Origin: Massalongia carnosa
Lineage: Eukaryota
DNA: 64,000 bases
Direction: 5' to 3'
NCBI GenBank assembly: GCA_965645245.1
Contig: OZ287074.1
Span: 2,108,001 to 2,172,000 of the forward strand
Positions 16,371-47,296 of the stretch are shown one piece after another (positions within the stretch are counted from its first letter, which is position 1; every line of letters starts with the position of its first letter). Position numbers and translations under genes: made by a program. The notes beneath the pieces were generated by a model. It worked only from the letters and a program-made list of their open reading frames with translations, did not search any database and was not told where the DNA came from.

Positions 16371-16372
16371 TA

Positions 16373-26730: not shown

Positions 26731-28038
26731 ATGGCTGACTATAAGTTTGAAGGCTGGATGGCCTTCGATAAGGAAACTGGGGTTGGTAATATGAAATGGC
26801 AGGAATTTGAGCCTAAGGAGTTTGAGGAGACAGACGTGGACATTAAGATCACTCACTGCGGTTTGTAGATCGATCTTAGCGATGACAAATTCTTGCAAGA
26901 TCGCTGACATCTTTTGCAAATTCCTAGGAGTTTGTGGTACCGACGTTCATTCTCTTAGAAGCGGATTGTTTCCCACAGACTACCCGTGCTGTGCCGGCCA
27001 TGAGTACGGGCATTCCCAATCACTTTTACCGTTACCAGCTACTCATCCGAAGCAGAATCGTTGGTACCATCGCCCGAGTCGGATCCCAAGTTGCTCGCGG
27101 TCTTAAGGTCGGAACAATTGCGGGAGTAGGTTCCCAAATTGGATGTTAGCTTTCTCCTTTCGCTCTCTACTAAACTGGTATCTGACAAACCCACCAAGCC
27201 TGTGGCGAATGCGAAGCCTGCATCGCAGGAAAGCAAAATTACTGCCCCAAGATGATTCAAACATACAACAGCCGCTATCCAAACGGAGTTAAAACTTATG
27301 GCGGCTTCGCCAACTATTGGCGTGGGCCCTCTGCCTGGGTCTTCGCCATTCCTCCATCCATGCCACCAGCTGAAGCGGCGCCGATGCTCTGCGGTGGTAT
27401 TACGCTCTACGCGCCACTAAAGCGCTTCGGCTGTGGACCCGGTAAGAGCGTAGGCATCGTCGGCACAGGTGGATTGGGTCACTTCGGGATTCTATTCGCC
27501 AAAGCCCTTGGTGCAGATAAAGTCGTCGCGTTATCTCGGAGTAACAAGAAACGAGCCGACGTTCTCAATCTGGGCGCAAACGATTATATAGCGATGGAAG
27601 AGGACGCTGATTGGTCGACTAAGCATGCTAATTCTCTGGATATTATCATATGCACGGTGTCCTCTCCCCAGGTCAGTTAGCATCCACGCTACCTACAGGG
27701 TCTTTTGAGTGACTTCGTCTGGAATCCCTGTTGAATCTTACCAACGCTCATAGGTACCACTGGACGGATTTATCTCCCTCCTTCGCACCAATGGCGCCTT
27801 CGTCCAACTCGGCGCACCCGCCCTTCCTCCTGTCAACGTCGCCTACTTGATCTTCAAGGGTCTCACCCTTAGCGGCTCACTGATCGGCCCGCCAGACCAG
27901 ATCCGTGAGATGCTCGATTTCGCCGTGTCCCACAAGATTCATCCAATCGTTCAGGAGAGGTCGATGAAGGATGCAAACCAGGTGGTTCAAGACTTGGATA
28001 ATGGCATGGCTAGGTATAGGTATGTGTTGGTGAACTGA
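26731..28038 (+). CDS. Zinc-binding NADP(H) alcohol dehydrogenase, ADH6/cinnamyl-alcohol dehydrogenase-like, 5 exons
   Basis: Introns 26861-26927, 27004-27055, 27145-27198, 27672-27753 give CGVCGTD, GHEIVG, CGECEAC...NYC, APMLCGG, GTGGLGH, ARYRYVL. Confidence 0.93.
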
Positions 28039-30498: not shown

Positions 30499-32760
30499 CT
30501 ATTTTCCGCCAACGATCTCGGCAGCAATTTTCTCCGCCAGCGCGTCTACTCTTCTCATCAGCTCGTGTTTTTATTTGTTAGGAAGAAAGCTGGGAGGGTT
30601 GGGTTGAGGCTGCAGGGTGCGAAGAGATATGGTAATAAGACTTACAAACAGTCGCCATCGGATGACCAGGCGGCAGAAATGGAAAGGCACTCGCGTCAAC
30701 TACCCTCAAGCCGGTCACACCTATCACTTTCGCAGAGGTATCTACGACGGCGTTGATATCGGTTTTGCGGCCCATGGCGCAGGTGGCGGCTGCGTGGAAG
30801 ACGGTGGATACGGATTGCCGGATTAGGTGGAGGATGGCGTCGTCGGTGGAGACCTGTGGGTTGGAAAATGGAAAGAGTCAGTGAGTGATACTTTACTGTA
30901 TGTATGAGCGATTTGGAAGGGGAGGGGGTTGAAGTGTCATTTACGAAAGGCAGAGGCAGGGGGCATGCACGTACATTAGTTCCGGGGAAATATTCGCTTC
31001 CAATCACCACTTTTTGCATGGCCTTCGTCCCAAATAGCTCTCTCACCCTTTTGTACCCGGCTACGGCAACAGCCTGGTCCGTCGGGTGCGTGAGCCATTG
31101 TGGGTTGATGAGCGGCGGGTCCGCCATGTCCGGACTGTTGATGTCAATGGTGCCTCGTGACAGGGGCGCCTCAAGCGCCATGGCAACAGTAGCATAGTTG
31201 TAGCCATCGTTTGGGCTGTCTCGTAAGGGGTAATTCTGGTAGCCTAGGTAGCCACCAATGCTTAGGAACTCGATTTCCGGCCAGTCGGCGGGAAAAGTGG
31301 AGAGGGAGGTTCGGGTGACACTGCTGAGGTTTGCGCGGAGATGAGGGGGGAGTTTTTCCCATGCTCCAAAGTCGCCACCAGCGTTAGTGAGGATGCCGGA
31401 TTGGTTGTTGTCGAAGAGTGCTGCGGCTTCGGAGGCAAAGGTAGGATTCGCGAGCGAGGAGCCGGTGATGGCGTTTACTCGGTAGCTGGGACCCATGAGA
31501 ATATGATCCTGTGGATTTTTGATCAGTGATTTTTCAAAGATTCAGCTGGAGGTCTCCTTGAGCGGGGTTGTTGCTTACCTGCAAATTCTGACCTACACCA
31601 GATCGATCTGCTACAATTGGTATCTTGAACCTTGACAAACTTGCCGCGGGACCCACGCCAGACACCATCAAAAGCTGCGGCGATTGAAACGCTCCAGCGG
31701 ATAGGATAATTTCCTGCTTTGCTGACAAGGTATACTCTTCGCCTTTTGTGGACACGATGATGCCTGTGGCCTTCTTCTTTGAGTCGAAGAGAATTTTCTT
31801 GCCCAACGTCAGTTGATAGACCACCAGATTAGTCCTATTCAATGCGGGCGTTAAAAATGCGGTTTCGGACGACTCGCGTATTTGTGTGGAAGGGCGAATC
31901 GTTTCAAGGACATAAGAAGAGCCCAATAGCTTGCCACTTGTCAAGCCGTTGATGGGTTGAACTCCAAGCTCCTGAAGGCCTTTTTGAACAAAAGAGGATA
32001 CCGCCATGGCATAGTTCGAGAAGGTGACCGACAACGATCCGCCGCCCTTACCGAAGCTTGATAGGTCGTATTGTGGCGTGGCATTTGCAGCTCGCTTAGT
32101 CTCATCTGGAGGTGTAAAACTCAAACTTTTCTCAAAGAACGGCAGAAGTTGATCGTACGTGTAGCTTTGGTCTTCGACCATATCGGCCCATTTTGCATAC
32201 GAACCTTTGGTCCCTCGAAGGTAGCCCATGTAATTCCGAGCACTGCTTCCACCAAAACATTTTCCGCGAGCATAGTGAATCGACGCATTGAGCGCACCCT
32301 AGAAATGGTTATTTACCACATCAAAATAACGAGCTTCTCTTTTTTAGTTCTTAAACTCTGGGGCCGATCATTTGGGGAAGGGGCCAGTTTCACGTACTGC
32401 TTGGGGAGTAGTGACGAATCCCCAGTCAATTACAGCGTTGGAGTCTTTGGGATCCTTGCCAGTCCAGAGAGAGTCGTAAAAAGGAATCTGGCTGGAGTTC
32501 CCGGGTTGCTCATAAAAACTGCCAGCCTCAACGACCGCTACAGACACTGACGGATTTTCTGATAGTCTTGCCGCCATGACTAAGCCGGCAGTACCGCCGC
32601 CAACTACCACATAGTCGTAAGTTGCAGCTCCTGGTGCATTAGGCGACGAGCCAAATAGTCTGTTCCTAGCGAGAAAGTGTACAGCTCCTGGTGTTGGCGC
32701 TGCATTTGCCAGATATTCGCGAGCCAGGGTCAGCGTTGTGATAGCGAGCAGATACTTCAT
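30499..32760 (-). CDS. Secreted GMC oxidoreductase (AA3; resembles the versicolorin B synthase/PatE group), multi-exon
   Basis: Hydrophobic N-terminus MKYLLAITTLTLA; YDYVVVGGGTAG, VEAG, GGSSARN, LSAGAFQSPQLLMVSGVG, FHAAATCAMG, LRVVDAS, GHPMATVYALAEKIA; GT-AG introns. Confidence 0.92.
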
Positions 32761-34196
32761 GGTGAAATCTTGGATGTTTGACGTAACTCGAAACAAAGGA
32801 AATGTGCAAATGAAAGTGGATTGCAGAAAGGAAACAGGCGACAAGCTTCATATCAAATACAGGCCCCAAACCATTAGACTGCCCCCAAACCAATAGACAG
32901 CCCAACACATCTCAGTCAAGGCAAAGCTAACCGCCACGTGAGAAATATTATTGGGGCTATTGCTGATAATGTAAGAGAGATCATCCCGAAATGAAACCCT
33001 TGCCCTGGCACACCAAATATACATCAAAGTATAGCTAGTGCCGAGCATAAAGAGACACCAATGAGCTCAACATTCATGTTACGTTCGAGCCACATGAAGC
33101 AAGAGTGAGAAGTCGCACAGTAACAGATGAAATCATACAGTAACAGATGAAAACACACATATTTTTCTTCCTGATGAAACTCCAGCTACGCCACAGCAAC
33201 AGGACGACCATACCATGACTTTAATCCCATATAATCATTTCCGCCTTTGGGCTGATCATATTAGCCGTAAATAGAACCTGGCAATAAAATAGCAGACGCT
33301 AAGCAGCGATTGTGGCGCACTAGATCTTGAATGGGGCAAAACATCTTCTCAAGGATCAACGTCCGATGGCATATCACTAGGTGAGAATAGTGGTGTACTC
33401 AAAAAGCAGCCTTGCGGAAAGTATTGTCCGATGAATCTAGAGGTAGCACCTAATCAAGATCTCTCTTCGTTACTAGCTTTCTCAACAGAAACCAAAGATA
33501 AGTCAGTGGTTGATCAAGAAAATAGAACTTTGAGTCAACACGCGATGAACCCTTACCAAAAATCCAAGGGGTAAATTTTGCCACGTGGATGCCACACGGG
33601 AGCATTTCCATTGATATCATGTCGTTTCATCTATTTTTCTATTTTATGATGAAAAGTATGCCGCAGAAGCAATCCTGCTGTAAGCCTCAATATTGTTGTC
33701 TTACGTGATATTCTTACAAATTATAATGTGAGACTATGCAGTCTTATATCAGAATTATCTCATATTACGTTTCGACTATTTGAATGACAGAAGTCTGATT
33801 ACGTGATGCCGCATCAGTTTTATAAGGAGGATACATATCTCAGGAGTCTGACCTGACCTGACACCAGTGAAACGCAGCCACCTTGTGTATATTGCTATTC
33901 TAATGTTTGGGCAAAGTCCTGACCCTGGGGTGTGGCATGACACCGTTCGTGCGCTGTCCACGCAGGGTACGGAGCCGAATCGGGTAGGCTACGAGGTCCA
34001 TGGACGCTGTAGATGCGAACCCTGGGGTCAAGACATACTCCCAAAACCCCAAAACCGTGTTCCTCGCAGAGGAATGGGTTAGAGCGTGCGAAGTCTCGCG
34101 ATGATGCGGCTGCAGTGTAGATGTGAAGAGAGTTCGGGTAAAGCGTGGGATTTTTGTGAGATGGATCCGTCAAGATAAATGTGATATATGTGATTT

Positions 34197-37100
34197 TCAG
34201 GCTCTTTGATGTCGTTTCGAGGCATTCCATATAATTGAAGGATTTATGTGTATGTATAATCGGTAGGCGTCCGACTTCCAACGTCCTAGCAACTTGATTT
34301 CATCCTCGCTCAGGCCGGCGTTTTTCGCGGAAGTGGCGGCGCCTCTGCGAAAGGAGTGACCTGAATAATTTCCTTGGTATCCCTTGTCTTTTAAGACGTC
34401 TCGTAGTGTTTCGTGACGAAATTCCGCGTGAAGGCCTTTTTTGGATAGAATAAAGGTTGAGTGAGATCTGTGGGAAAGCGTTCGGTCAGAATTCCCAATG
34501 ATCGAACTGGGCAGGCTTCGTCGTTGACGGCCGCTACTCTAACAGTGACGCCTTGTCGGAAGGGGTCCGTCTTGGAGGCGGGGAGTGTCAGTTGTAATCT
34601 GTCCTCGGTTAGTAATAATGAACCTCTGGTTATGTGCCATTGGGCAAAGTCGTCTCCCCACATGTTTTCTTCCCATGTGAATTCTCCGATACGTAAAAAG
34701 GCCGCAAAGGTTAAGCAGCAGGCCGCGTGCAATGTGGCTCCTCTTAAGGAATTTTGGTCAAAAGTATTGGCTATTTCTTTTAGGATGGACCGGCTAATAG
34801 GTCGACGTTCTCGTGGCTGGACAGCGGGGCGGAGCCGGCGTATGCCTGCTACGATTCTTTCTAGTTGGGGATGATGAAATATATCTAATTCAGTCTTCGA
34901 CGCGCCTCGGTCGACTTGATAAGATCTGATGCCGCTTATGTATTGTTTTTTGGTTTTTGGATTAATTCCCCTATCGCCTGAATAGGCTGCCCAGTCGCAT
35001 AATGATCGGATAGACGGAGGAAAAGAGATGTGAGTCCATAACGCGCAATATTCGGTGTAGCTTCGTCGTGCCTGCTCATACGATGTTCTAGTCCCTGTAG
35101 CTAGGCCCCACCATAAATATCTCGCCGCTGAGTTTGACAATTCTTGATTTTGGAAGCAGTGTTCCGGTGGTTCACCGGTTGTGCCCCGTGGGCTAATGCC
35201 ATGTTCTGTAGTAAAGGATAATTGTCAGCAATTTGGTCCATTAACCGCGGGAAAGCATATCTGCCAGAGTGTTTTCTCTTGATGAGATCCAATGTGATTC
35301 AATGACGAAGTCATGTATTGCTAATAGCATGGCAATATCTCGTAGGGGTTTCATGGCCGGGCCACGTATGGAGCCGTTCCGTAGTCCATTTACGACCGCT
35401 TGATTGTCGCCATACATGACGAGTTTGGATCCTTTGAAAATAGGTAACCATTTACGTAATACGTGTAGTACAGCCATCATTTCTTTGACATTGATATGCT
35501 TTTTCATGTCTCTGGACGAGGTCCTTATCGAGAGTACCTCCGCAGATGAGACTAGAGAATCCTTTGAATGTCCTTCGTCGATTATCCCGGTTATTTCGTG
35601 ATGTGTCATGCGTGACGCATTATGTTCCCGGACGAGGTCCGATGAACCCTTGATACCTCGAGCAGATGCAGCGAGAAGTTCTTTAGAATTTTCTTCGTCT
35701 GTCATCCCGGCCATCCGCATCGAAGACACCTCGGTAGACACCTCCAGAAATTCGCTGTAACTTCCTTCTTCGGTTATCTCGGTTGTCCCGGATTTAAAGG
35801 TTCGCATTGCGATGTCCCCGGACGAGGTCCGTATGGCGGACATCCCGGCAGGTGTGACTAGGAATTCGCTGGAATTCTTGTCGTCTATCACCCCAAATAT
35901 CCCCTGAGCCTGCATGACCCGGACATCTTGTATCCTTAACTCGTTGTCTGAAGACGTCTCGAAAGAGGTTGAGTTCTTCTTTGAAGGCATCCAATGAGGG
36001 GGTCTCGTGAGAACACCCCGTCTTGGGAGAGATACCTCGGCAAACGCACGCTATGTTTCGGTCGTCTCTAATATTTGTGTGTTTGAACGACGAGAAAGCG
36101 TGCCCGCTTCGGTGGAGTGTGGGGTTCGGTGCACCGAATAGTACCCGCCCATTCCCCATGTTCCCGAAGCGTCTGTCCATAAACTTATCTCATCTCTAGT
36201 GTTCAGCGATCGCAAATTGTGAACGCCATTCCATCTGGGCAAGAAGTATTGCCACCATAATAGATCTAATCGCATGTCGCCAGCAATGCGGATCCGACTC
36301 GTGTCTTCGCCGAGGGCGGTAAATAGGCGGCGTAGAAAGGCTCTGCCTGGTTTGACCACTTTGGCCGCAAATGATAGAAACCCAAGAAGAGAACGTAATT
36401 CGTCTTTGATCATATAATCTTGCGTTAATGCGCTGTTGGCCCACTCGATAGCTATTTTTAGCTTGTCGGGAGGTAGACAGGCTTCCATGCGTTGGGTGTC
36501 TAGCGTTAACCTGAGAAAATCACAGATTTGTCCCGTCTCTCCCTTTGATGCGTTTTTCGCATGCCCAACTCGTCGCACAACGTGTCGAACGCGGACTCGG
36601 AACGAGAAGCTTCCTCGCTGGTCTTGACGATTGCGAGGAAGTAGTCTAAATAATGTAGGACTAGCCAGTTTTGAACGATAAACACCCAATTTATTCACTT
36701 GGCAAAGAGATCGAAAATGAATGGAGAGGTACGAAGACTAAATGGGAGGAAGATGTCCATCCAATACGAATTGTTCCACTGAAAACCTAGTAACCACCAG
36801 TCCGTTCTTGCGACGGGAATGTGCCGGAAGGCGTCCGCGAGGTCGCGTTTCACGAGATATGCTCCTCGTCCGACGTTAAGAAGAGCTTCTAATGCTTCGT
36901 CAAATGACGTGTATTCTAGGGCGCCCCATTCAGCGGGAATGTGATAATTGACCGAGCCTTTGCGTGGATGAGACAAGTGATGAATTCTTCGCCATTTGTC
37001 ATTGGGCTTGGGGACGAGGCCCAGCGGGGAGGACATAAAGTGAGACGGTGGTTCCCCTACGGGTATCACTCGGTGCTGTCGAATTTGTTCGTCTAGATCT

Positions 37101-39799
37101 TTGGATAACACTTCAGGTGCGTCTTTGGCCGAGGATAAGTTCGGGCTTATTATACGCTGTTTTGGTCCTGTGTAGCCAATTCTTGCCCCGTATCGAATGA
37201 TGTTAAGAATCGTCTTTTTGTAGACTCTATCTGGATGTTTCTCTAATCGTCGTTTCCATCCCGCTGACTTAAGCGGGCACCGTACCTTGTCCGCATCCTC
37301 GTCGGTGTCTATCCGGTATGGAAAACCTTCGGAAATAGACGAGAGGGCGCTTGGGACGGATAGTCATGAGGTGGGCTTGCTTTGTTGTTGAGGGTATGGA
37401 TTTACACGCGTACGACAATCGGGTTGAGGATGATGACGTCCGCATGACGCGCACACGTGACAAAAAGTGCAGTTGATTGGGCCTTCGCCACCGTTATTGT
37501 ATCGTCTGCACGCTATTATGCCGCGTTGATCGTCTTGACTTGATGTGCGTTGAACGAGGGAGTTCGTGCTTTGTATTCGACGAAGATTGGAACCCGCGTT
37601 GTATTCGATTTTCCGACGAAGGTTTCGTTCTTCTAAACCTCTGTTCGGGGTCCGCCAACCGCGTGGATCATCTACGCCCTCTACAAGGCGGGCTTTGTGA
37701 AAGCCGAAGTGAAATTGACGAATTGATTCGAATGTGTTTAGAAGAGACCAGCCTAGTAATTGATCAATGTAGACGTGCATTGCCGCCTGCAGTTCCATTT
37801 GTGTGCCCGCGTGAGCTATGTGAATGACGATTTAACAGCATATAAGGAACGCGCGAAGAAGATGTGTGATTCCTCTTGCGTCCGAGGCCAGAGCGTCCTC
37901 TTCCCGGTATTCCACCTCGGTTGATCCAATTCTTAAGTATTTGTTTTTGGGCTGAACTGACTCGTATTCGGTTGACAGCTTCATAATGTTTTCCACCTTG
38001 AACTTGTCGTCGCGGATGTTTTTGAAGTATTCCGTGTCCACCATTGGGAATCTCGCTATCAGAGAATGAAATATAGGGGACGCACCCTCACACGCGGGTG
38101 ACGAAATAAAATTTACACCAAAATTTCTACCCCACCAAAATCATCAGACTTTTCATCCACCATCATATTAAATAACCATGAATCGATCCATGACTCCACT
38201 TCTTGAAATTACAGGGCCTGGAGTCGAAGTTCCTACACCTAATAAGGCAAAAACTCAAGGAGCTGTAGAAGTTTGCGAAGCAATGGGAATATCTTATTAT
38301 AAGGAAGACGTTTTTCGTGTGTTCAATGTTTCATGACAATAAGACTACAAATATCTCCGCAGCGAATCTTAACGAAGACAGCATAATAATCCCGATATAT
38401 CAGAGCAGCGGGGTCGAAAATCTATCATAAATCTCAACATATACGAGAAATGGAGCGTATTCTTGAGACCGAAGGCATTGAAGCACGAGCTTTAACTTGG
38501 GAACAATTGGATTACGAAGTGGGCTTGGATTGTAGTGGTCGCACTGTTCAAAGAGCGATGGGTACAATGGATTATCATAAGTGTGTTTCTTGTAGAAAGG
38601 GCTGAGTCAATAAGAAAACAGCAGCGCATCGAGTCAGTTGGGCAACTGTAATGCTTGAGAAATATTCTGAGTGGGAGGATTGGCATCATGTACGATTCAG
38701 CGATGAGATTCATTTCGGCTGGGATCCTCAAGGAAAACTACGAATCATACGAAAACCTGGAGAAAGATATTGTCAGAATTGTATTCAAGAAGAGAATAAA
38801 GCAGACGAGAAGGACAAAAAGCGTCATCATTGCTGGGCTGCGATAGGACACAGTTTTAAATCAGATATCTTTTTTTACAATGTTTCGGGTAACACCAACG
38901 GAAAGATGAGTCAAAAGGCCTACATCGAGCAGATTTTGAATCCGATTATTCTTTTATGGCTGCAAACGGGTCTGAGGTTCTTTTTAGAAGAAGATGGTGA
39001 TTCAGGTCATGGACCAGGCAAATCGAATATTGTACGCACCTGGAAGGAGAAAAATGAGCTGAATCATTATTTCAATTGTGCTTCATCTCCTGATCTGTCT
39101 CCGATTGAGAATTGCTGGCAGCCTGTCAAACATTATCTTCGAAAATATCCTTATTGGGACGATGCTAATACTAAAGAGTTGATTTATGAGGGATGGAGTC
39201 ATGTTTCTCAACGATTTTTCAACGAACAGGTGGCCACGATGCTCAAACGACTGCAAGCGGAGATTGATAAAGGTAGAATGACTGGTTATCGTGGTAGCAA
39301 ATGAAATTCAAACATCATCAAATGAACTGAATAGACGTTACAATAATGGATGAAGAGTCTGATGATTTTGGTGTGGCATAAATTTTGGTGTAAATTTTAT
39401 TTTGTCACCCGCGTGCCTCAGCATGAAATGTCGCGAACGCGCTCGGTCTCGCTGGTAGTGTTAAAGGATATGTGGGGTGTGGGACGCCGCCGTCTCGTAT
39501 CTGAGGCGTTGTATTACGCGTTCGAGTTCCGCCTCCTCTTGTTCAATTTCACTAATTTTTGCTTCGGCTCGTAGTCTTTCGGCTTCCGCTCTGAGGGCCA
39601 CACGACGGTCTGGTGGCGGGGTCACCTCGGGGGAGGAGTGACGTTAATCATTTTCAATTGTGACTTCTCTGGAGTCTGGTTGGAATGTGACTCGACCTGT
39701 TCGGCTGCGTGCGCCTCTGCCTCGACCACGATTGGCGGGCGCGCCGCGAGGAGGATTCGTCTGGCGATTTTCTCGCCCGATTTGACTGCGTGAGTTCAT
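34197..39799 (-). mobile_element. Decayed Ngaro/DIRS-type tyrosine-recombinase retrotransposon (gag, RT, RNase H, YR)
   Basis: SPLGLVPK, DLADAFR, LHYLDYF (RT); WTDASG, HINVKE, GDNQAV, LADMLSR (RNase H); FLRIGE, SKTD, GHSFRRG, LGRWKS (YR); termini not resolved. Confidence 0.9.
38091..39415 (+). mobile_element. Tc1-like DD37E DNA transposon inserted in the Ngaro gag
   Basis: ~69-bp TIRs CACGCGGGTGAC(G/A)AAATAAAATTTACACC; FSDE, EDGDSGH, SPDLSPIE; N-terminal part has stops; CCTCA on both flanks. Confidence 0.9.
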
Positions 39800-40420
39800 G
39801 ATGTGAATTGGATATAGATAATAGGTTTGCTTTGTGTTTAAAATAGGAGGGATGGATGGAGAATGATGGACCCAATGCACAGAAAATAGGTGGCAGAGTG
39901 CCAGAAGTCTCTGGATAGTACAGAACTTCAATAATTCAGATTATTGCGACTGATCTCTAGGCTGTGCGTAGGAGTGATGCTATAAACATGTTGATCACAG
40001 AACATTCGAGATTCTCCTCGAATGTCTATAGACCTGAGTTTCTAAGCATCGAAGATACCAGAAATTCTCAGATGTAATTACTCCCATATTAGTAAAATAC
40101 GCGAAGGCATTCGCATATTACGTCAGATATGATCCAGCTGGCTTGGCATCGCAACACTTTGAGATGGGAATATGAAGAAACAGCGAAACACGATCTATGA
40201 TGAGTGTTGATGAGGAGAAAGAAAGAGGTGGAAGAGGTGGAAGAGGTGAAGAATTTTCACCTCCCTGCTAGCGTCCGGCTCTATCCAGCTCACACTAAGG
40301 GTGCCGCCCGTCACGGTGACAACGTTCTTGAAGATCGTCCAATCATGCAAGAACGAGTTATCTTGTATGAAAATTCCTGAAATTCAAAAAGTCAGTGAAA
40401 ACAAGATTTCTCGCTCGACA

Positions 40421-40575
40421 TAGTGAATAGATTTCTACCATTGCGCCACCTGTCCTCCCGACCAAAAGACACAATACTTAGTCCGCAGACCAAGCTCTAT
40501 TCTACTATAACTGGGACTCCTGCTATGTTCGCTGTAGGTCCTGCCGTCCGCACCACGCATGGTCGAACCGTTACA
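40421..40575 (-). mobile_element. Truncated solo LTR, TGTAACGG family
   Basis: Reverse complement of most of 13798-13967. Confidence 0.8.
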
Positions 40576-40694
40576 ACACCTACGACTGTCTTAAATAAAC
40601 AGATTATCTACGAAAATCGTAGATGTCGTATTGAACATAGTCTTAAGATAAGATAAGATTACTTCGTATATTAAAAGATTATTGTATAACAACT

Positions 40695-40926
40695 TGTTGA
40701 AATAGGTATATGACTATGGCTATATGACTATGTAATAATAAGTGTATGTATAACCGTGATGTTAAGGATGAAGAGTGCTGTTCAGCAGTCTTTATCCTAT
40801 TACTGGTCACCTTCTGTTAAGTGAGGTGATCTTTATCTTATCTTGGGACTAACTTAGGCCTAATGCGGCTTCTACGGTTTCCTAGATGCTATGTTCATTG
40901 TACTGATAGGAGTTGGATATTCAATA
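40695..40926 (-). mobile_element. Solo copia LTR nested in another copia-like LTR ending at 40994
   Basis: Same family as 25133-25402; TSD CAACT; host LTR ends CTATTTCAACA followed by GGTTAT. Confidence 0.8.
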
Positions 40927-41294
40927 CAACTCTTCATTCTTACGATCATATATAGTTATCTCTATTATTACACAATTATATTTCTATTTCAACAGGTTAT
41001 TTATCATTATGATTGCAGAAAACGTTGATTGATTAACTTCTGATTAAAATATTTGTGATTCGATAAAATATGCTCTTATGCGATACGCGTATCCGAATTC
41101 TAATAATCCGCCGGGAGGAGAATTGATCATCTTAATGCATGATACAGATAGTTAAACTCTGCAGAGATTTTACCCGAACTCCTAAAAGGCAAGCTAGCCT
41201 AATTGGATAATCGCAATCATCAACTGCCTGACCTCAATCTAGTTAGGCTAACACAGGCTAACATCAACAATTGGAGTCACTGGAATTGCAACCG

Positions 41295-42674
41295 CTAAGT
41301 ATCAAGCCCGTTCATCTGTCCGCGAAGAATCCTCTCGTGGCTGTATTCAAAGCATTCCGGCAACTTTGTATCACTCCATGTCCCCCCGAGGATCAGCTTC
41401 ACCAACCCTGGAGCGCAAGTAAAGATACGCGCCATCCCATGGCCATTGAACCCTGCACAGATATACTGGCCCGGTAGATCCTCCAATTCACCCACGTAGG
41501 GTACCTTGTCCGGCGTTACCGCAATGAGGCCTGTCCAAGCATGATCTAAACCTTCACCGTGGTGCTTCGGTTTCCCTTCTTGTGAATCTGGGAACAAAGT
41601 ATCAAATTGTTGGACGGCTTCATCGACGAGTCCCTGGTCGAAGGATGAATCATCGAACGTTATTCCCGCAGGTTTGGCCACACCGAAGATTATCATGCCG
41701 TCGCTTTTCATCTGGATCAGGGCGTAGAAGCGCTGCAACTCATACCGCAGTGCCATGGTAGTTTGCAGTACGTGCTCGCTGGAGAAGGCAGCTGTCGGGA
41801 CGAGAGAATGTACCTGAATTCTGATTGGGGTGAGGAGACTGGTAGAGAGTTTTGGGAGGAGATATCCTGCATATGCGTTGGTACAATGAATAATTCTCTG
41901 GCTTGAAACGATTCCTCGTGGCGTGTGAGCATCCCACTCCGCTCCTTTGCCTCGAGTGACTGCGGTGACGGGACAATTGGTCCATAGCTTGCATCCTCGG
42001 CCCACGACATTGGAGAGAAGCCACTGGGCGAGTTTGACTGGATGAATCGACGCTGCAGGCCATTCCCACGCTGTGATTGCATCCCGGACCCCCGTTCTTT
42101 CTACTGCTTCGTCGCCTTCGTACAGCTTGATCTGATGCATACTGCCACCAGCTTCAACGTAATCCTTGACATTTCTCGCTACATCTTCAACGATTTCCTG
42201 TGTGAGGCAAATGTCAAAGGTTGGTTTGGGGCTAAATTCACAGTGGATGTCATGCTCGTGCACAAATTTACTGACAAGCTCCAGAACGATATTCTCATTT
42301 TCCACAATCTTGAGGGCTTGCTCTACGCCATGGGCAGCCTTATAATCGCTAAATCCACGGAAGGCCTCTGGTCGAACGTGACCTGCGTTGCGGCCACTTG
42401 AGCCCGAAACTGCCTCGCGAGCTTCCAGGATGATAACCTTATCAGGCTTGATGCCAGCCTCCAGCAGTTCGAATGCTATCAAAGCTCCTGATATACCTGA
42501 ACCAATTATGACATGTTCGGCTGAAGCAGGTACAGGGTTAGTCTTGTTAATGTTTAGGTGAGGAAAGGCACGCGTTGTACGATGCCAGTAGGAAAGACAA
42601 GAGTTAGGATAAGGGATAGAAGGTTGCAACTGTTGTGCACATGGTTGATCAGGAGACCTCTCGTGTAAAGACAT
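41295..42674 (-). CDS. FAD-dependent oxidoreductase, DAO family (PuuB/OrdL-like), intronless, ~459 aa
   Basis: SYWH, IIGSGISG, LEAREAVSGSSGRNAGH, HCTNAY, WTG...TPD.VPYVG, AGFNGHGM; ATG at 42674. Confidence 0.92.
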   Translation of the reverse strand: MSLHERSPDQPCAQQLQPSIPYPNSCLSYWHRTTRAFPHLNINKTNPVPASAEHVIIGSGISGALIAFELLEAGIKPDKVIILEAREAVSGSSGRNAGHVRPEAFRGFSDYKAAHGVEQALKIVENENIVLELVSKFVHEHDIHCEFSPKPTFDICLTQEIVEDVARNVKDYVEAGGSMHQIKLYEGDEAVERTGVRDAITAWEWPAASIHPVKLAQWLLSNVVGRGCKLWTNCPVTAVTRGKGAEWDAHTPRGIVSSQRIIHCTNAYAGYLLPKLSTSLLTPIRIQVHSLVPTAAFSSEHVLQTTMALRYELQRFYALIQMKSDGMIIFGVAKPAGITFDDSSFDQGLVDEAVQQFDTLFPDSQEGKPKHHGEGLDHAWTGLIAVTPDKVPYVGELEDLPGQYICAGFNGHGMARIFTCAPGLVKLILGGTWSDTKLPECFEYSHERILRGQMNGLDT

Positions 42675-43585
42675 AGTAGTATCCGAGGATTTTGATGGTG
42701 CACTCAATATAAAAGAGAGCTCGTACAGGCGATCGATAATAAATCAGGCTTGGGAAAAGATATAATTGTGATATCTTGGATAACTTCTCATAACTGTCTT
42801 TATGCTAGACATCTAGAGGCGTCCACCGCAGGATCGTAAGAGAACATAGAGTTCGGGAATGATGAGCTTGACATTGAGCAATAACATGGAGGCTGTCTAC
42901 AGAGGTTATATTTCCCAGTAATCCCTAGATAGTGGCTGGTCTGTAAGCACTCATATTTCTCACTCTGAGAACCCGTTTATCTGCAGCATCATCCGGTGCT
43001 AATTATGCACGAACGCCTTCTCTCGTGAGTAGAAGCGACTGTCGCCACCTTATAGTAAGTCTTATCAAAGATGACTGAAAAGCCATCGACGAGCTCGATT
43101 GCAGATCGAAAGTCAAGATCAAGACTATCGTAAGTATCTCTTTAGCACTTAGTGTCTAAGCACATGAAATTAAGTGACTATGTTGGCTTACAATATGAGA
43201 AGATGTTATTCTGAGTAATTCGGTGATTCGATTCCTGATGGATCGTAATTCTTGCTGACGTGAGTTACCCGGATGACATAAAAACGATAAACCTATTTCT
43301 CATCTAGCTTATTCTCCCAGTCTAGAAGATCAACCCTCGTCGATTAATATCAAGATGAAGGAGATAATTGAAGTCAGTGCGAATGTCATTTTTCATAGTT
43401 TAAAGTCTCATCTGTAGCGCTGAATCTTAATGGAGCTGAAATGGAAGCTCTGTTGGCAGTGACTTGTCGAAAGATTTCTCGTGGCTCCTTATACTGAATC
43501 AAGGTTACCCAGATAACCAGTCTCTACATTTTCCACTTGTTCTAAGGCTATCGAGAAGAGGAGGGGAAAATAAGTGTAGAGTAAA

Positions 43586-44926
43586 ATGGCCACCATCGGA
43601 GTGTTGTGGTCAAACCTATCCAGTATCGATGCAGAATCTTTTACGTACGCAAACGATATTGCCAATGAATCCAACAATGCATTGCCTTTCGATATCCATC
43701 TACAGAGCCCCAAAACATCGATCAAAAATCTCCCGCACACTCAATCGACGGCTTTCGACGTCAACACAGAGATTGAACATTTTCGTCTGTCTTTTGAGAT
43801 CCTCGCTGTCCTCGAGAAGTACGGCCGACATGTAAATTCTAATGCCCAATGCAGCAACTTCATCATTGGCACTGCGTTGAAACCCCCGGCTTGGATCGGG
43901 AAATACAGGTTTCTCACTCATGTATATCATCATGTGAGACAAACGCAACCAGTGCAGCTGACACTGCCGGCTTTTCCTTGCAAGAGCGTATGTTCTATTC
44001 TTCATGTTTCGATTGGTACTCATTATGGGTCTTTTCGTTTCAAAGTAAAAGTTATGCTGACTTTTGAATCTTTAGTTAAATCGCGTAAATAAGGTGTTGG
44101 GTTATCTCCCTGATCTTGGAGAGGAGCTGGCTTTGTGTCGTCTGCACGCAATGGGTAAGGATATAGAGAAGGTGTATACCCCCGGGGCTCAGGTGAACAT
44201 CGCATCCGATGGTGTGCTATTCAACGGTGAGAGTAAAAGAGAGTCTATGATCGTCAGTCTTTTAGGCTGACCACTCTTTGACCAGATATCCTCGGAATTA
44301 CAGACCAAGATTGCTGGAACTACGGAGAAGCACTTCAAGAAATTATATTTGAAAAAGGGTTGACCACTATCCGATTCACCCGATGCATGAGCCTTCTCGG
44401 CCTTATGTCTGAGAAAGACACAAATAGGGAGACATACCTTGCGAACACAGAGACATGTCGGAGAGAGCTCGAAAGACGATTCGGCCCGTCAGAAGAGGCA
44501 TTAAATAGTTTGATCAAAAGCGACAAAGATACCAGCTTGACCTATTGCGGCATGGTCAAATTTCTTGAGTCTGAGATGGAGACCAGCCCGACTCTAGCGG
44601 GCCAGACACGCTCTGCCAAGATAAGGCTGTACAAGAAGATGGCGAAGAGGATGATGCAACGATCCGAGGCATTCACCTTGGCGATTCGGACCTTAAAACA
44701 TCTCCATGTCCGATTGTCCATGCACCCGTCATCCGGCGCAGTTAAGTTATCGATCCCATTGATCCCGACGTCAGATGGCAACTATCAGAAGTCGCCATGG
44801 CACAGTTGCGTGGCAGTCGGCTTGGACGGAGGATATCGGTGTGTTCATGTCGAGGAGGTAAAGGAATCTCACGATCTAGTATATCAGAATGGACGTCCAT
44901 ACTACTATTGCGAGAGGATTCGTTAA
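43586..44926 (+). CDS. Isocyanide synthase, DIT1/PvcA family, 3 exons, ~397 aa
   Basis: Introns 43988-44075 and 44227-44285 give [64 protein letters not shown], SPWH; true start may lie further upstream. Confidence 0.88.
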
Positions 44927-45106
44927 TCGAAAAGCAAATTGATTAAATAACGAAGCGAGAAAGAAAGGGACCGCGACAGTGGTGCCAGCCTAGACCTATT
45001 GTGCACAATTAATAGTTATCTATCGAATTGAAGCAAAATAATATACCGATGCGTACTTCATTATTCTGCCCGTATATCTTTTTGTATTTACTCATATTAA
45101 TTAAGC

Positions 45107-45149
45107 TCGGCCGGTGACACAACGGCGTAAGAATAATCAAATCAAATCA
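45107..45149 (+). mobile_element. 43-bp ultra-truncated copy of the LINE at 251-5512
   Basis: Identical to 5470-5512; 11-bp TSD ATTAATTAAGC (45096-45106, 45150-45160). Confidence 0.9.
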
Positions 45150-45394
45150 ATTAATTAAGCCAATTCAGAAATGAAAAGGCATTCGTAATTCGTGGGCTCC
45201 ATCGTGTCAGCTGAACATATACATTACTTCTATCCATATTTGGGCAACTCTACCCTCGCTACTGCCCTGCTGGCGCTTAGTTTTGCTGAGAGCCCCTCCT
45301 ATAATGGCTTTGTTAGGGTAGTAGTGAGGGGAAAAACTCCCAACCCCAAGTAGGGAATGGCCCACCTACGGTAGTGCTCGGAACGTGGTGGGGG

Positions 45395-47296
45395 GTCGTT
45401 GAAATGAAGGGAAGTCGCTATTAATTGGTCCGGGTGTGTCTGAATGTACAATTGATACGAGTCTGATTTCCATCGGCCCAAGGTCTGAATATCTTCCTCT
45501 AGCAAGCCCGAGTTCTTGGCCGTTGTTGCTGCACCCCGTCGAAACGAATGACCCGAGTAATTCCCTCGGACGCCAATTGCCCGGAGGCCACTCCGTAGAG
45601 CCTACACTAAATATTCACGAGTGAAGGCTTTGTCCTGAACTTGGAACAATGGGGACGATGCTGGTTTCGGGAATCGGGTAAACAAGTTCCGAGTGGAGGT
45701 GATCGAGCATGCTTCGTTGTTTGTTGCTGCGATATAAATTATTCTATCCCTTCGAAAAGGGTCCGGCTTGGATGACGGTAGGGAAAGAATTATTCGATTC
45801 GCTTGTAGATCCACCGATTTCCTAGTTAAATGTCATGAATCGAAGCTGAAGTCTTGTATTTCTCCCTGTTTATAGGTAAATTCTCCAGCTCTTAAGAAGG
45901 CGACAAATGCGATGCTGTATGCTGCATGTAGTGTTGCATGGACCTCGTTGGTAGTGTCTAGTTTCCGTAGCAATTTTATCAAAACGTTGCGTGTGATTGG
46001 TAGCCTTTTTCGTCTTTCTGGTTCACCGTGCATTCGTTTCATTCCCACTATTATTCTGTCTAGGACTGGATGGTGAAAGACCTCTAGGTCCCTAGGCCCA
46101 TGTTCAATTGGCTCGATCGTACTCCAGCTAAATAGTTTTTGATGATTTTGGGCGGAGCCCTCGCTGACCCAGGGCGGCTATCCATGCCGAAAGACTTCGA
46201 ATTGTCGCTGGAAAGGGAAGGAAATTCGTTGCCAAATGAAAGTGGGTCGTGTAGCTTTTCCGGGCTGCATCGTATAACCCTCGAGTCCTAATTGCTATGC
46301 CTCACCATAAATATCTGGCTGCTCGGCGATCCAGCGGAACCTCGTTATACCAAGTATCTGGGGGGCCGCGGGCGAGTGACGCCGTTATTTGTTCGATAAA
46401 ATGCCCTGTAGGTTGGGGTAATTGTCAGTGATTTTTCCAAATAGTCCTCGGGACAACCAAACTGCTAAGAAATTTCTTTGGTAGACAGCCAGTGAGGTTC
46501 AATCTCAATGTCACATTTGCCGCCATCATGGCGATATTCCGGAGGGGATGCATGGCCCCGCCCCGAATGGAGGCCTTTTTGACCCCGGACATTACAGCAA
46601 AGCTGTCGCAATAAAGAAGATGAGCTCCGTTGCACTAGGGAGCCACCGCCGTATGGCGTGCAGATCGCTGTCATCTCCTTCTCATTGATATTTTTGGCTC
46701 TGAGCCTGGTGTTATAACGTTCAGAAACCACTTGCTCAGCGGGCAATGTGTGTGGTCTGACCACCTTGAAGTATGTATGCCCCAATTCCGAAGTCCCCAC
46801 TGGCATCCGTCCGGAGACGGAGCAGGGGTCTCGAAGGGCTAATAATCATTGATATGTTCGGCTCTGAGCCTGGTGGTATAACGTTCAGAAACCACTTGAC
46901 CACCTTGAAGTATGTATGCCCCGATTCCAAAGTCCCCACTGGCATCCGTCTAGAGACGGAGCAGGGGTCTCGAAGGGCTAATAATGTGTATGCCGTTCCA
47001 TAATGGAAGGAAATGGATGCCACCATAAAAGATCAGCTTTTATGTGAGAACTGGTATTCATAAATGGGCGCGCGGGCCCGATTTTGCAGTTGAAAAGGCG
47101 TCGGAGAAAAGTTCTTTCCGGCACCACCACTTTGGCTACAAAGCCCAGAAATCCCAGGAAGAGTGTCTAGCTCGTTTCTGGTTATCGTGGATTTATTCAA
47201 TGTGTTTGGACGAGATCCTTCGCTTTCTGAAGCTTTTCGGCCGGGTAGTCGTGCCTGCATGAGGTGTGTGTCCAGCTCGATGCCCAGGAATTCGAC
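45395..47296 (-). mobile_element. Second Ngaro/DIRS remnant (RT end, RNase H, YR), heavily frameshifted
   Basis: VEFLGIELDT, RTDASGDFGIG, NINEKEM, FLRAGEF, SKPDPF, GHSFRRG, LGRWKSDSYQLY. Confidence 0.85.

What the first reader, a model, noticed from the sequence alone, without database searches (positions are those of the whole stretch)
41295..44926. Isocyanide synthase divergently paired with a DAO-family flavoenzyme: candidate new isocyanide pathway
Seen: a stand-alone DIT1/PvcA-domain gene and an FAD amine/amino-acid oxidase gene are head-to-head across a ~910-bp TE-free spacer and bounded by TEs. Known: ICS enzymes turn an amino-acid amine into an isocyanide; typical partners are a P450 (Dit2, XanG), a TauD-type dioxygenase (PvcB) or a fused NRPS-like module (CrmA). 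None of these is in the window. Inference: the flavoenzyme supplies or tailors the substrate, giving an uncharacterised, possibly metal-binding isocyanide or formamide. Caveat: 43355-43585 could be a frameshifted N-terminal extension, so the ICS may be decaying.
Basis: partly seen in the sequence, partly recalled or inferred. Interest (0 to 1): 0.72.

Follow-up and report, generated by a model that had tools for sequence, protein, structure and literature searches.

The report
Conserved isocyanide synthase–flavoenzyme gene pair
An intact isocyanide synthase gene and a dedicated FAD amine-oxidase-type gene sit head to head in a transposon-rich fungal genome, and the same pairing recurs across four classes of fungi, so it is a real but chemically uncharacterised biosynthetic module rather than a chance neighbourhood.

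Summary
A three-exon, 397-aa monodomain isocyanide synthase (ICS, 43586-44926 +) and a single-exon, 459-aa DAO-family flavoenzyme (42674-41295 -) diverge from a 911-bp single-copy spacer. Transposons bound the island on both sides. Both genes are full length, so the suspected frameshifted N-terminal extension is not supported.

The pair is conserved. All 3 metagenome loci found with the ICS alone carry the DAO gene divergently upstream. Eight named-genome clusters hold both genes, four of them adjacent. ICS-linked DAOs, including the window's, form their own clade (support 100) apart from a widespread paralogue group.

- Homologous clusters are already listed, but not discussed, in the 2023 fungal ICS catalogue. 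There they usually carry an aldehyde dehydrogenase, a TyrRS/TrpRS-like gene and an MFS transporter, and none of these is in the window.
- A GMC oxidoreductase (32760-30499 -) lies directly behind the DAO gene in two relatives. It is a syntenic third member here, pushed 8.5 kb away by transposons.

The product, expression and exact role of the flavoenzyme remain unknown. I read this as a new variant of a catalogued, uncharacterised ICS cluster family, of moderate interest.

The parts
43586..44926 (+). Isocyanide synthase gene (monodomain DIT1/PvcA family), 397 aa. Exons 43586-43987, 44076-44226 and 44286-44926 (stop TAA 44924-44926). Introns 43988-44075 (GTATGT..TTTAG) and 44227-44285 (GTGAGA..ACCAG).
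   Evidence: Pfam PF05141 covers 1-270 of 273 across the three exons. The spliced CDS is open, 1194 nt. It is 75.7% identical to P0001 over 395 aligned columns, with the same N- and C-termini. Intron positions are shared with L001-L003. A profile of the clade hits solved Tyr/Trp isonitrile synthases 9dhm/9dh4 (E 3e-40) and PvcA 3e59 (E 4e-33).
41295..42674 (-). DAO-family FAD oxidoreductase gene of the ICS-linked subfamily. Single exon, 459 aa, with GxGxxG at G58/G60/G63.
   Evidence: PF01266 E 4e-44. An identical protein is on record as the window's own (P0018). All 71 invariant columns of the 30-sequence alignment are kept. AlphaFold2 model pLDDT 85.3, pTM 0.88. Foldseek top matches are L-amino-acid deaminase, dimethylglycine dehydrogenase, L-proline dehydrogenase and glycine/sarcosine oxidases. 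It falls in the clade with all ICS-linked DAOs.
42675..43585 (.). 911-bp single-copy divergent promoter region between the two start codons. It holds a 9-mer, AGATGACTG (43069-43077), shared with the equivalent spacers of L001-L003.
   Evidence: Sequence. Single-copy unitig 41240-45136. The only ORF in it of 130 aa or more has no Pfam hit. Shared 9-mer: 1 observed, against none in 200 mononucleotide shuffles. This is weak evidence, because L001-L003 are related to one another.
30499..32760 (-). GMC oxidoreductase gene, probable third cluster member. Model of 5 exons (32760-32398, 32298-31579, 31508-30975, 30853-30646, 30545-30499), 623 aa, with a hydrophobic signal-peptide-like N-terminus.
   Evidence: GMC_oxred_N and GMC_oxred_C hits. 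It is collinear with, and 58-75% identical to, the GMC gene that lies directly behind the DAO gene in L002, and to the cut fragment in L003. The apparent frameshift at 31509-31578 and the C-terminal break at 30546-30645 are canonical introns. The open model is 514 of 623 identical to P0138. Introns 1 and 3 were chosen by best fit to the homologue, not by RNA.
32761..41294 (.). About 8.5 kb of inserted mobile-element DNA separating GMC from DAO. In L002 the equivalent gap is about 1.3 kb.
   Evidence: DDE_3 transposase at 38606-39304. A run of broken - strand ORFs at 34200-37831 has sub-threshold Phage_integrase (E 0.003) and RNase H-like (E 0.002-0.01) matches. This run is 43-54% identical at protein level to the element at 45.4-47.2 kb. 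Short repeats at 40416-40830 recur elsewhere in the window. Unitig depth jumps at 41141-41281.
45107..47200 (-). Right-hand boundary: a high-copy repeat, then a degraded tyrosine-recombinase-type element related to the one at 34.2-36.4 kb.
   Evidence: Unitig depth is about 59x the single-copy depth from 45089. Collinear tblastx matches to 34.2-36.4 kb. Phage_integrase E 0.11, sub-threshold.

Best explanation
The finding is the core of a conserved fungal isocyanide-synthase biosynthetic cluster, in a transposon-rich genome of a probable lichen-forming Lecanoromycete.

Anatomy. An intact monodomain ICS and an intact flavoenzyme are transcribed divergently from a shared 911-bp promoter region. 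The flavoenzyme belongs to a DAO subfamily that is specifically linked to this ICS clade. A GMC oxidoreductase abuts the DAO gene in relatives and belongs to the same unit here. Transposon insertions have moved it 8.5 kb away.

Most likely working (family chemistry established, application here inferred):
1. The ICS converts the alpha-amino group of an amino acid into an isocyanide.
2. The DAO-type enzyme oxidises a C-N bond of the precursor or of the isocyanide intermediate to an imine or aldehyde. Candidate sites are a second amino group or a cyclic or N-substituted amine.
3. The GMC oxidoreductase (in this variant) or the aldehyde dehydrogenase (in sister clusters) carries the alcohol or aldehyde to the next oxidation state.
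4. The result is an isocyano or formamido acid of unknown structure. Relatives export it through an MFS transporter.

Shown here: gene integrity, synteny, and the subfamily split of the DAO. Inferred: substrate, order of steps, product.
For: Integrity: both genes are open and full length against their homologues. The GMC gene can be modelled as an open 623-aa CDS.

Unbiased synteny test: a metagenome scan seeded with the ICS alone returned 3 loci. All 3 carry a DAO homologue (61-65% identical) immediately upstream on the opposite strand.

Named genomes, by consecutive accession numbers and by Table S4 of Nickles et al. 2023:
- ICS and DAO are adjacent in Lepidopterella palustris, Cucurbitaria berberidis, Cladosporium sp. 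NU13 and the record labelled Aureobasidium melanogenum KCU65.
- One gene lies between them in Aspergillus ellipticus, A. heteromorphus, Metarhizium acridum and M. album.
- These span Dothideomycetes, Eurotiomycetes and Sordariomycetes. The window's nearest relatives are lichen fungi.

DAO phylogeny: in a 126-row tree, the window DAO and all 10 other rows taken as ICS-linked fall in one 28-row group. A branch with support 100 separates it from 98 rows (FastTree). The split recurs with SH-aLRT 100 in a 60-row IQ-TREE. None of 10 accessions sampled from the large group is in the stored part of the ICS-cluster table.

GMC: the order and orientation GMC-DAO-ICS are the same in the window, L002 and L003. 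Orthologues of this GMC also sit in predicted ICS clusters of Xylona heveae and Periconia macrospinosa.

Fold: the DAO model matches amine and amino-acid C-N oxidases and dehydrogenases. The ICS clade matches solved Tyr/Trp isonitrile synthases.
Against: - There is no expression or product evidence of any kind.
- The window lacks the Aldedh, tRNA-synt_1b-like and MFS genes that accompany the pair in the six named clusters seen in full. Either the local pathway differs, or members lie outside the window.
- The GMC link is not universal. The GMC homologues of A. heteromorphus and of the KCU65 record lie 34 and 58 accession numbers from their ICS genes. The Lepidopterella homologue is on another contig.
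- The GMC N-terminus looks like a secretion signal, which would place it outside the cell.
- DAO is not universal among related clusters. The 4 rows of the Talaromyces rugulosus cluster show ICS and the tRNA-synt_1b-like gene but no DAO. The first 5 of 10 rows of the Fusarium avenaceum cluster show none either.
- One named member of the 'linked' DAO clade (Clohesyomyces ORY08600) is not in the stored ICS-cluster table.
- Linkage is unknown for 17 of the 28 rows of that clade. For P0019 it rests only on an equal contig length (8495).
- The named clusters were looked at because both genes had hits there, so that sample is biased. Only the 3-locus metagenome test is unbiased.
Confidence: 0.7

Rival explanations
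1. The genes are neighbours by descent and share a promoter region, but act in unrelated processes. The DAO would be an ordinary amine or amino-acid catabolic enzyme, and the ICS merely sits beside it.
For: The DAO family is very widespread in Pezizomycotina: 636 hits, most at 50-57% identity and most from genomes with no sign of this ICS. Its nearest curated relatives are catabolic enzymes such as L-pipecolate oxidase, sarcosine/glycine oxidase and proline dehydrogenase. The Clohesyomyces member of the clade is not listed in an ICS cluster.
Against: Adjacency survives across four fungal classes while the rest of the neighbourhood changes. All rows known to be linked fall in one clade, separated from the widespread group with support 100. 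All 3 loci found with the ICS alone have the DAO in the same divergent arrangement.
Confidence: 0.1
2. The module is functional but does not make a secreted metal-binding isocyanide. It would make an N-formyl or oxidised amino-acid building block for a wall or spore structure (as yeast Dit1 does), or salvage or detoxify an amine. The isocyanide would be only a transient intermediate.
For: The best-known monodomain fungal ICS, Dit1, yields N-formyl-tyrosine for the spore wall (established knowledge; abstract of PMC7345447 seen in the listing). The GMC partner looks secreted, which fits wall-side chemistry. No isocyanide hydratase (DJ-1/PfpI) self-protection gene appeared in the scanned ORFs.
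Against: No Dit2-type P450 is present. Relatives carry MFS exporters inside the cluster, which is typical of secreted metabolites. Nothing in the data bears directly on the fate of the isocyanide.
Confidence: 0.12
3. In this particular genome the cluster is a silent relic. The ORFs are still open, but transposons have cut the unit off from other members and from its regulation.
For: 8.5 kb of mobile DNA separates GMC from DAO, and transposons bound the island on both sides. No MFS, Aldedh or tRNA-synt_1b-like gene was found within the scanned parts of the 64 kb.
Against: Three multi-exon or long ORFs (ICS, DAO, GMC) remain completely open, with canonical splice sites and every invariant family residue. 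That is not expected after long neutral decay in a repeat-rich region. The divergent promoter region is intact and single copy.
Confidence: 0.08

Closest known systems
Predicted ICS clusters with DAO in the fungal ICS catalogue (Nickles et al. 2023, PMC10153163, Table S4): 560_Lepidopterella_palustris, 1128_Cucurbitaria_berberidis, 790_Aspergillus_heteromorphus, 796_Aspergillus_ellipticus, 81_Metarhizium_acridum, 304_Metarhizium_album
   Same: A monodomain ICS of the same clade (50-64% identical in exon 3) lies next to, or one gene from, a DAO of the same subfamily (52-60% identical). No P450, TauD or NRPS-like partner is listed.
   Different: Those clusters also hold an aldehyde dehydrogenase, a weak-scoring tRNA-synt_1b (TyrRS/TrpRS-like) gene and usually an MFS transporter. 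Metarhizium adds a Zn-ADH. None of the first three is in the window, which has a GMC oxidoreductase instead. The paper's main text does not mention DAO, FAD or tRNA. I could not see which GCF number, if any, these clusters received, because the stored supplement is cut inside Table S4.
Metagenome loci L002 and L003 (GMC-DAO-ICS, with MFS in L002)
   Same: Gene order, strands and intron positions are the same: GMC and DAO on one strand, ICS divergent.
   Different: These loci are compact: about 1.3 kb between GMC and DAO, and spacers of 585-618 bp. They have no transposons, and L002 has an MFS gene beyond the GMC gene. The organisms are unnamed Dothideomycete-like relatives, 61-65% identical at protein level.
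dit1/dit2 (yeast spore-wall dityrosine), xan (XanB ICS-TauD with XanG P450), crm (CrmA ICS-NRPS-like), bacterial pvcABCD and isnAB
   Same: The same ICS enzyme family (PF05141). The expected first step is amino-acid amine to isocyanide.
   Different: The defining partner of each system is absent: no P450, no TauD domain or gene, no adenylation, PP-binding or transferase module. The partners here are two flavoenzymes. PvcC/PvcD are also flavin-dependent, but they are a two-component monooxygenase of another family (recalled, not tested).
DAO plus aldehyde-dehydrogenase pairs of amine catabolism: AmaA/AmaB (L-pipecolate oxidase and piperideine-6-carboxylate dehydrogenase) and PuuB/PuuC (gamma-glutamylputrescine oxidase and aldehyde dehydrogenase)
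   Same: The best NCBIfam match of the window DAO is L-pipecolate oxidase AmaA (95 bits). Several homologues are named OrdL, a synonym of PuuB. The sister clusters pair this DAO with an Aldedh, as in those pathways.
   Different: The score is far below the family cutoff (95 against 600), so this is a working analogy and not membership. The pathway pairings are recalled knowledge. Here the Aldedh is replaced by a GMC oxidoreductase.
PatE / versicolorin B synthase-type GMC oxidoreductases of fungal secondary metabolism
   Same: Many homologues of the window GMC at 55-59% identity carry these names. It has a signal-peptide-like N-terminus. PatE is reported to act outside the cell in the last step of patulin synthesis (recalled).
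   Different: The names are automatic annotations. No substrate can be inferred.

Membership tests
Isocyanide synthase, DIT1/PvcA family (PF05141) | Full-length match to the family domain | tested here: met
   Profile positions 1-270 of 273 are covered over three exons, best E 6e-51. NCBIfam TyIsonSynPvcA matches at 44 bits, well below its equivalog cutoff of 600, so this is family-level membership only.
Isocyanide synthase, DIT1/PvcA family (PF05141) | Homology to structurally solved isonitrile synthases | tested here: met
   The profile of alignment A1 hits 9dhm/9dh4 (E 3e-40 and 5e-40) and PvcA 3e59 (E 4e-33).
Isocyanide synthase, DIT1/PvcA family (PF05141) | Uninterrupted, full-length coding sequence relative to homologues | tested here: met
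   397 aa, no internal stop, canonical GT..AG introns. The N-terminus MATIG.. compares with MATAG.. in P0001, and the C-terminus ..GRPYYYCERIR with ..GRPYFYRER.
Isocyanide synthase, DIT1/PvcA family (PF05141) | Catalytic conversion of an amino-acid amine to an isocyanide; substrate identity | not testable with these tools
   This needs enzyme assay or heterologous expression.
DAO family FAD-dependent oxidoreductase (PF01266) | Domain match, dinucleotide-binding GxGxxG, two-domain glutathione-reductase-type fold | tested here: met
   PF01266 covers 3-346 of 353, E 4e-44. G58, G60 and G63 are invariant. AF2 model pLDDT 85. Foldseek E 2e-24 to 1e-22 to L-amino-acid deaminase, DMGDH, L-proline dehydrogenase and glycine oxidase.
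DAO family FAD-dependent oxidoreductase (PF01266) | Membership of a named equivalog (pipecolate oxidase, glycine oxidase ThiO, MTOX, and so on) | tested here: not met
   The best hit is AmaA at 95 bits against a cutoff of 600. All others are lower.
ICS-linked DAO subfamily (defined here) | Falls on the ICS-linked side of the DAO tree split | tested here: met
   28-row group with support 100 (FastTree, 126 rows). 25-row group with SH-aLRT 100 (IQ-TREE, 60 rows).
ICS + DAO + Aldedh + tRNA-synt_1b-like (+MFS) cluster family of the 2023 catalogue | ICS and DAO orthologues adjacent | tested here: met
   Head to head, 911 bp apart.
ICS + DAO + Aldedh + tRNA-synt_1b-like (+MFS) cluster family of the 2023 catalogue | Aldehyde dehydrogenase (PF00171) in the cluster | tested here: not met
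   No PF00171 hit among the 34 + 121 + 137 window ORFs scanned. In 1-24 kb only ORFs of 130 aa or more were scanned.
ICS + DAO + Aldedh + tRNA-synt_1b-like (+MFS) cluster family of the 2023 catalogue | tRNA-synt_1b-like gene (PF00579) and MFS transporter in the cluster | tested here: not met
   No PF00579 or PF07690 hit in the same scans.
GMC-DAO-ICS variant (window, L002, L003) | GMC oxidoreductase on the DAO strand, behind the DAO gene, orthologous across loci | tested here: met
   Collinear and 58-75% identical to the L002 GMC; the cut fragment in L003 is 54% identical. Here transposons separate it from DAO by 8.5 kb.
dit (Dit1/Dit2), xan (ICS-TauD + P450), crm (ICS-NRPS-like), pvc/isn (ICS + TauD-type dioxygenase) | P450 partner, TauD domain or gene, or a fused or adjacent adenylation / PP-binding / transferase module | tested here: not met
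   None of these domains is in the ICS protein itself or in the scanned window ORFs.

The most novel reading that the evidence does not exclude
The ICS-linked DAO subfamily, with either a GMC oxidoreductase or an aldehyde dehydrogenase, defines an unrecognised branch of fungal isocyanide chemistry.

In it, flavin-dependent C-N oxidation makes or remodels the carbon skeleton. This step takes the place of the P450 coupling, Fe/2OG desaturation or NRPS-like loading used in known systems. One example would be turning a diamino or cyclic imino acid into an isocyano-dicarboxylate or isocyano-aldehyde.

The window would then encode the first such pathway in a lichen-forming fungus. GMC and Aldedh would be interchangeable solutions for the same oxidation step.
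Probability: 0.3. Interest if true: 0.7.

Novelty: new variant of a known kind. Interest (0 to 1): 0.5.

Why it matters
Only a handful of fungal isocyanide pathways (dit, xan, crm) have a known product, although thousands of ICS clusters have been catalogued.

This pair marks a family that spans at least four classes of Pezizomycotina. Its tailoring set consists of flavoenzymes and dehydrogenases, not a P450, dioxygenase or NRPS-like module, so its product is likely to be a new type of isocyanide or formamide.

The work here gives three concrete handles:
- a minimal conserved core (ICS plus a dedicated DAO paralogue) suited to heterologous expression;
- two natural variants of the third step (GMC or Aldedh) that can be swapped;
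- a phylogenetic marker, the DAO clade, for finding further members.

It also shows how transposon expansion in a lichen-fungus genome can stretch a compact cluster. Such stretching would hide a member from cluster callers that rely on proximity.

Tried and rejected
- Whole-genome search: no genome is held for this window.
I scanned individual ORFs instead.
- The first metagenome scan, with the DAO protein alone, found no relative. The second, with the ICS alignment, found 3 loci.
- Expression: no RNA holder was listed. The four runs laid were all DNA contigs without joints. Nothing can be said about transcription or splicing.
- Frameshifted N-terminal extension of the ICS (43355-43585): rejected. 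The ORF 43440-43835 has no Pfam hit. Homologue N-termini match only from the ATG at 43586 onward.
- Apparent frameshift and C-terminal divergence of the GMC gene: both are canonical introns.
- Copper-response element (motif recalled from memory, TTTGC[TG]C[AG]): found in none of the 4 spacers.
- GCF number of the family in Nickles et al.: not determinable.
- Test of the tree's prediction on Clohesyomyces: ORY08600 is not in the stored table. I could read only one of that genome's two ICS clusters, so the test is inconclusive.
- Literature: no paper holds 'isocyanide synthase' + 'aldehyde dehydrogenase' + 'tRNA synthetase', or 'DIT1_PvcA' + 'DAO'. Searches on isocyanide with FAD-dependent, Metarhizium, lichen and GMC oxidoreductase gave nothing on this family in the passages read.
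- Earlier findings of this scan: none by place, words or sequence.
- Zn-ADH at 26.7-28.0 kb as a cluster member: left open. ADHs occur in the Metarhizium and Xylona ICS clusters, but L002 has an MFS at that position, and I could not test orthology.

Full report
**What is there**

The window is transposon-rich fungal DNA. ORFs of 130 aa or more include a LINE, two Ty3/gypsy polyproteins, a copia gag, Tc5/pogo-type and DDE_3 transposases.

On the + strand, three ORFs carry consecutive parts of the DIT1_PvcA profile: positions 1-23, 24-71 and 72-270 of 273. With GT..AG introns of 88 and 59 nt they join into an open 1194-nt CDS: exons 43586-43987, 44076-44226 and 44286-44926, 397 aa.

On the - strand, one ORF from ATG 42674 to the stop at 41297-41295 encodes a 459-aa protein. 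PF01266 (DAO) covers 3-346 of 353, E 4e-44. The two start codons are 911 bp apart.

**Integrity**

The spliced ICS aligns end to end with its closest homologues. It is 75.7% identical to P0001 over 395 columns, starts MATIG.. against MATAG.., and ends at the same place.

A tblastn of seven homologue N-termini against the spacer finds only the real N-terminus at 43586. The ORF 43440-43835 has no family match. The suspected frameshifted N-terminal extension is not supported, and the ICS is not truncated.

The DAO protein keeps all 71 invariant columns of a 30-sequence alignment, including GxGxxG. It folds with pLDDT 85 into the amine-oxidase fold. Foldseek's top matches are L-amino-acid deaminase, dimethylglycine dehydrogenase, L-proline dehydrogenase and glycine and sarcosine oxidases.

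**Boundaries**

Public DNA assemblies that hold the stretch give one unitig, 41240-45136, at single-copy depth. Depth rises about 17-30-fold at 41141-41281 and about 59-fold from 45089.

To the left lie a DDE_3 transposase (38606-39304) and a run of broken ORFs (34200-37831). The broken ORFs have sub-threshold tyrosine-recombinase and RNase H matches. To the right, 45.4-47.2 kb is a diverged copy of the same kind of element, collinear and 43-54% identical in translation. 'Bounded by TEs' is confirmed.

**Is the pairing more than chance?**

The least biased test was a metagenome scan seeded with an alignment of the ICS alone. It returned 3 loci. All 3 carry a DAO homologue (61-65% identical to the window's) immediately upstream on the opposite strand.

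In named genomes, consecutive accession numbers place the two genes as follows:

| Genome | ICS | DAO | Arrangement |
|---|---|---|---|
| Lepidopterella palustris | OCK74769 | OCK74768 | adjacent |
| Cladosporium sp. NU13 | GAB7336005 | GAB7336003/4 | adjacent |
| Record labelled Aureobasidium melanogenum KCU65 | KAH0365162 | KAH0365161 | adjacent |
| Aspergillus ellipticus | PYH98634 | PYH98636 | one gene between |

The closest relative's ICS (P0001) and DAO (P0019) both have a longest contig of 8495 bases. This suggests one contig but does not prove it.

**Already catalogued**

Table S4 of Nickles et al. 2023 (PMC10153163; I read the abstract, sections 20, 21 and 31, passages, and rows of the stored supplement) lists predicted ICS clusters that contain these very proteins:

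| Cluster | Gene order |
|---|---|
| 560_Lepidopterella_palustris | Aldedh, tRNA-synt_1b, DAO, ICS |
| 1128_Cucurbitaria_berberidis | MFS, Aldedh, tRNA-synt_1b, DAO, ICS |
| 790_Aspergillus_heteromorphus | MFS, tRNA-synt_1b, Aldedh, DAO, x, ICS |
| 796_Aspergillus_ellipticus | ICS, x, DAO, Aldedh, tRNA-synt_1b, MFS |
| 81_Metarhizium_acridum | ADH, DAO, MFS, ICS, Aldedh, tRNA-synt_1b |
| 304_Metarhizium_album | the same genes as 81, in another order |

PF00579 occurs in 28 rows of the stored table, mostly Metarhizium and Fusarium. Two of these score like genuine synthetases and may be chance neighbours.

The main text never mentions DAO, FAD, PF01266, tRNA or aldehyde dehydrogenase. I could not see the tables that assign GCF numbers, because the stored file stops inside Table S4.

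Not every related cluster shows a DAO. The 4 rows of the Talaromyces rugulosus cluster, and the first 5 of 10 rows of the Fusarium avenaceum cluster, have none.

**The DAO is a dedicated subfamily**

The tree used the 119 listed homologues (leaving out P0018, the window's own record), three further cluster members, the three locus proteins and the window protein, 126 rows in all.

- The window and all 10 other rows taken as ICS-linked fall in one 28-row group. A branch with support 100 separates it from 98 rows that include the common Penicillium, Aspergillus, Hypoxylon and Aureobasidium pullulans proteins (FastTree).
- A 60-row subset, hand-picked to span both sides, gives the same split with SH-aLRT 100 under IQ-TREE.

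As a control, none of 10 accessions from the large group occurs in the stored ICS-cluster table.

Against a clean picture:
- The Clohesyomyces protein ORY08600 sits in the small group but is not in the table either.
- Linkage is unknown for 17 of the 28 rows.
- The root is not known, so 'clade' here means one side of a well-supported branch.

**A third member**

In L002 the gene order is MFS (+), GMC oxidoreductase (-), DAO (-), ICS (+). L003 begins inside the same GMC gene.

The window has a GMC gene at 32760-30499 on the DAO strand. It is collinear with the L002 gene and 58-75% identical to it.

What looked like a frameshift (31509-31578) and a divergent C-terminus (30546-30645) are canonical introns with CTGAT branch sites. 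A five-exon model is open, 623 aa, and 514 of 623 identical to P0138. Introns 1 and 3 were chosen by fit to the homologue.

The trio GMC-DAO-ICS is therefore syntenic. In the window, about 8.5 kb of mobile DNA has been inserted between GMC and DAO.

Orthologues of this GMC (61-65% identical) also lie in predicted ICS clusters of Xylona heveae and Periconia macrospinosa. Those clusters have a multicopper oxidase and no true DAO.

The link is not universal. The GMC homologues of A. heteromorphus and of the KCU65 record are 34 and 58 accession numbers from their ICS genes, and the Lepidopterella homologue is on another contig. The N-terminus (MKYLLAITTLTLAREYLANAAP..) looks like a secretion signal (my reading, no predictor was run).

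**What the window lacks**

Pfam scans found no Aldedh, tRNA-synt_1b, MFS, P450, TauD, NRPS-type or DJ-1/PfpI domain. The scans covered 34 ORFs of 130 aa or more across the window, 121 ORFs of 45 aa or more in 24.2-34.5, 39.3-41.0 and 45.0-48.5 kb, and 137 ORFs of 50 aa or more in 48.4-64.0 kb.

The only other host gene nearby is a multi-exon Zn-dependent alcohol dehydrogenase at about 26731-28038 (+), which looks complete.

**How it most likely works**

The ICS family chemistry, amino-acid amine to isocyanide, is established. It is supported here by homology to solved Tyr/Trp isonitrile synthases and PvcA.

The DAO fold is that of enzymes that oxidise a C-N bond next to a carboxylate or in a secondary amine. 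Its best curated match is L-pipecolate oxidase, far below threshold.

In sister clusters it is paired with an aldehyde dehydrogenase. That echoes the known oxidase-plus-dehydrogenase pairs of pipecolate and gamma-glutamylputrescine catabolism (recalled). In this variant a GMC oxidoreductase stands in that place.

My best reading, as inference:
1. The flavoenzyme oxidises an amine of the precursor or of the isocyanide intermediate to an imine or aldehyde.
2. The GMC enzyme, or the Aldedh in sister clusters, completes the oxidation.
3. The product is an isocyano or formamido acid, which relatives export.

The order of steps, the substrate and any metal binding are open.

**Regulation and expression**

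The four divergent spacers share one 9-mer, AGATGACTG (window 43069-43077). No 9-mer was shared in any of 200 shuffles. L001-L003 are related to one another, so this is a lead only.

A recalled copper-response motif is absent from all four spacers. No RNA run was available.

**Novelty and verdict**

The literature searches are named under Tried and rejected. Within the library searched, I found no study of the product or enzymology of this family.

The finding is a real, intact and conserved ICS module whose relatives are listed, but not discussed, in a public catalogue. The window carries a GMC-containing, transposon-stretched variant in a probable lichen fungus. The nearest named GMC homologues are Pseudocyphellaria, Alectoria and Xylographa, and the nearest named ICS is Calogaya.

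I rate it a new variant of a known kind, with interest 0.5.

Noticed in passing
window 26731-28038 (+): [quoted passage not shown] It looks complete and lies 2.5 kb beyond the GMC gene. Zn-ADHs also sit in the Metarhizium and Xylona ICS clusters of the 2023 catalogue, so it may be a fourth member. L002 has an MFS gene at that position instead.
   Followed up: partly
window 34200-37831 (-) and 45400-47200 (-): Two diverged copies (43-54% identical in translation, collinear, same strand) of an element with sub-threshold tyrosine-recombinase and RNase H-like matches. It may be a DIRS/Ngaro-type retroelement. One copy lies on each side of the DAO-ICS island.
   Followed up: partly
window 43069-43077; L002 8922-8930; L001 1260-1268; L003 2868-2876: The 9-mer AGATGACTG is shared by all four divergent ICS-DAO spacers. 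It resembles, but does not equal, a bZIP (TGACTCA-type) site (recalled). It could be a cluster-specific regulatory site.
   Followed up: partly
Sister clusters in Table S4 of PMC10153163 (for example OCK74767, PYH98638, KHN95589, EFY85730): A gene with only a weak tRNA-synt_1b (TyrRS/TrpRS) match (E 1e-8 to 1e-16) is a constant member of the ICS+DAO+Aldedh clusters. An aaRS-like enzyme inside an isocyanide cluster is unexplained. It could activate the amino or isocyano acid, or hint at the substrate.
   Followed up: no
Predicted clusters 505_Xylona_heveae and 784_Periconia_macrospinosa (Table S4 of PMC10153163): Orthologues of the window's GMC oxidoreductase (65% and 61% identical) lie in ICS clusters that carry a multicopper oxidase instead of a DAO. 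The same GMC lineage therefore recurs in two different ICS cluster types.
   Followed up: partly
window 41000-45200, run X4 (organism B, a different study): Low-depth contigs of a second coded organism match parts of the DAO-ICS island with no differences. The same or a nearly identical fungus therefore occurs in another sample set.
   Followed up: no
window 228-24159: A dense transposon field: a LINE with endonuclease and RT (1871-5320), a Ty3/gypsy element with gag (7330-12998), a Tc5/pogo DDE_1 element (14346-16386), a second, broken gypsy element on the - strand (16502-21232), and a copia-type gag (23272-24159).
   Followed up: no
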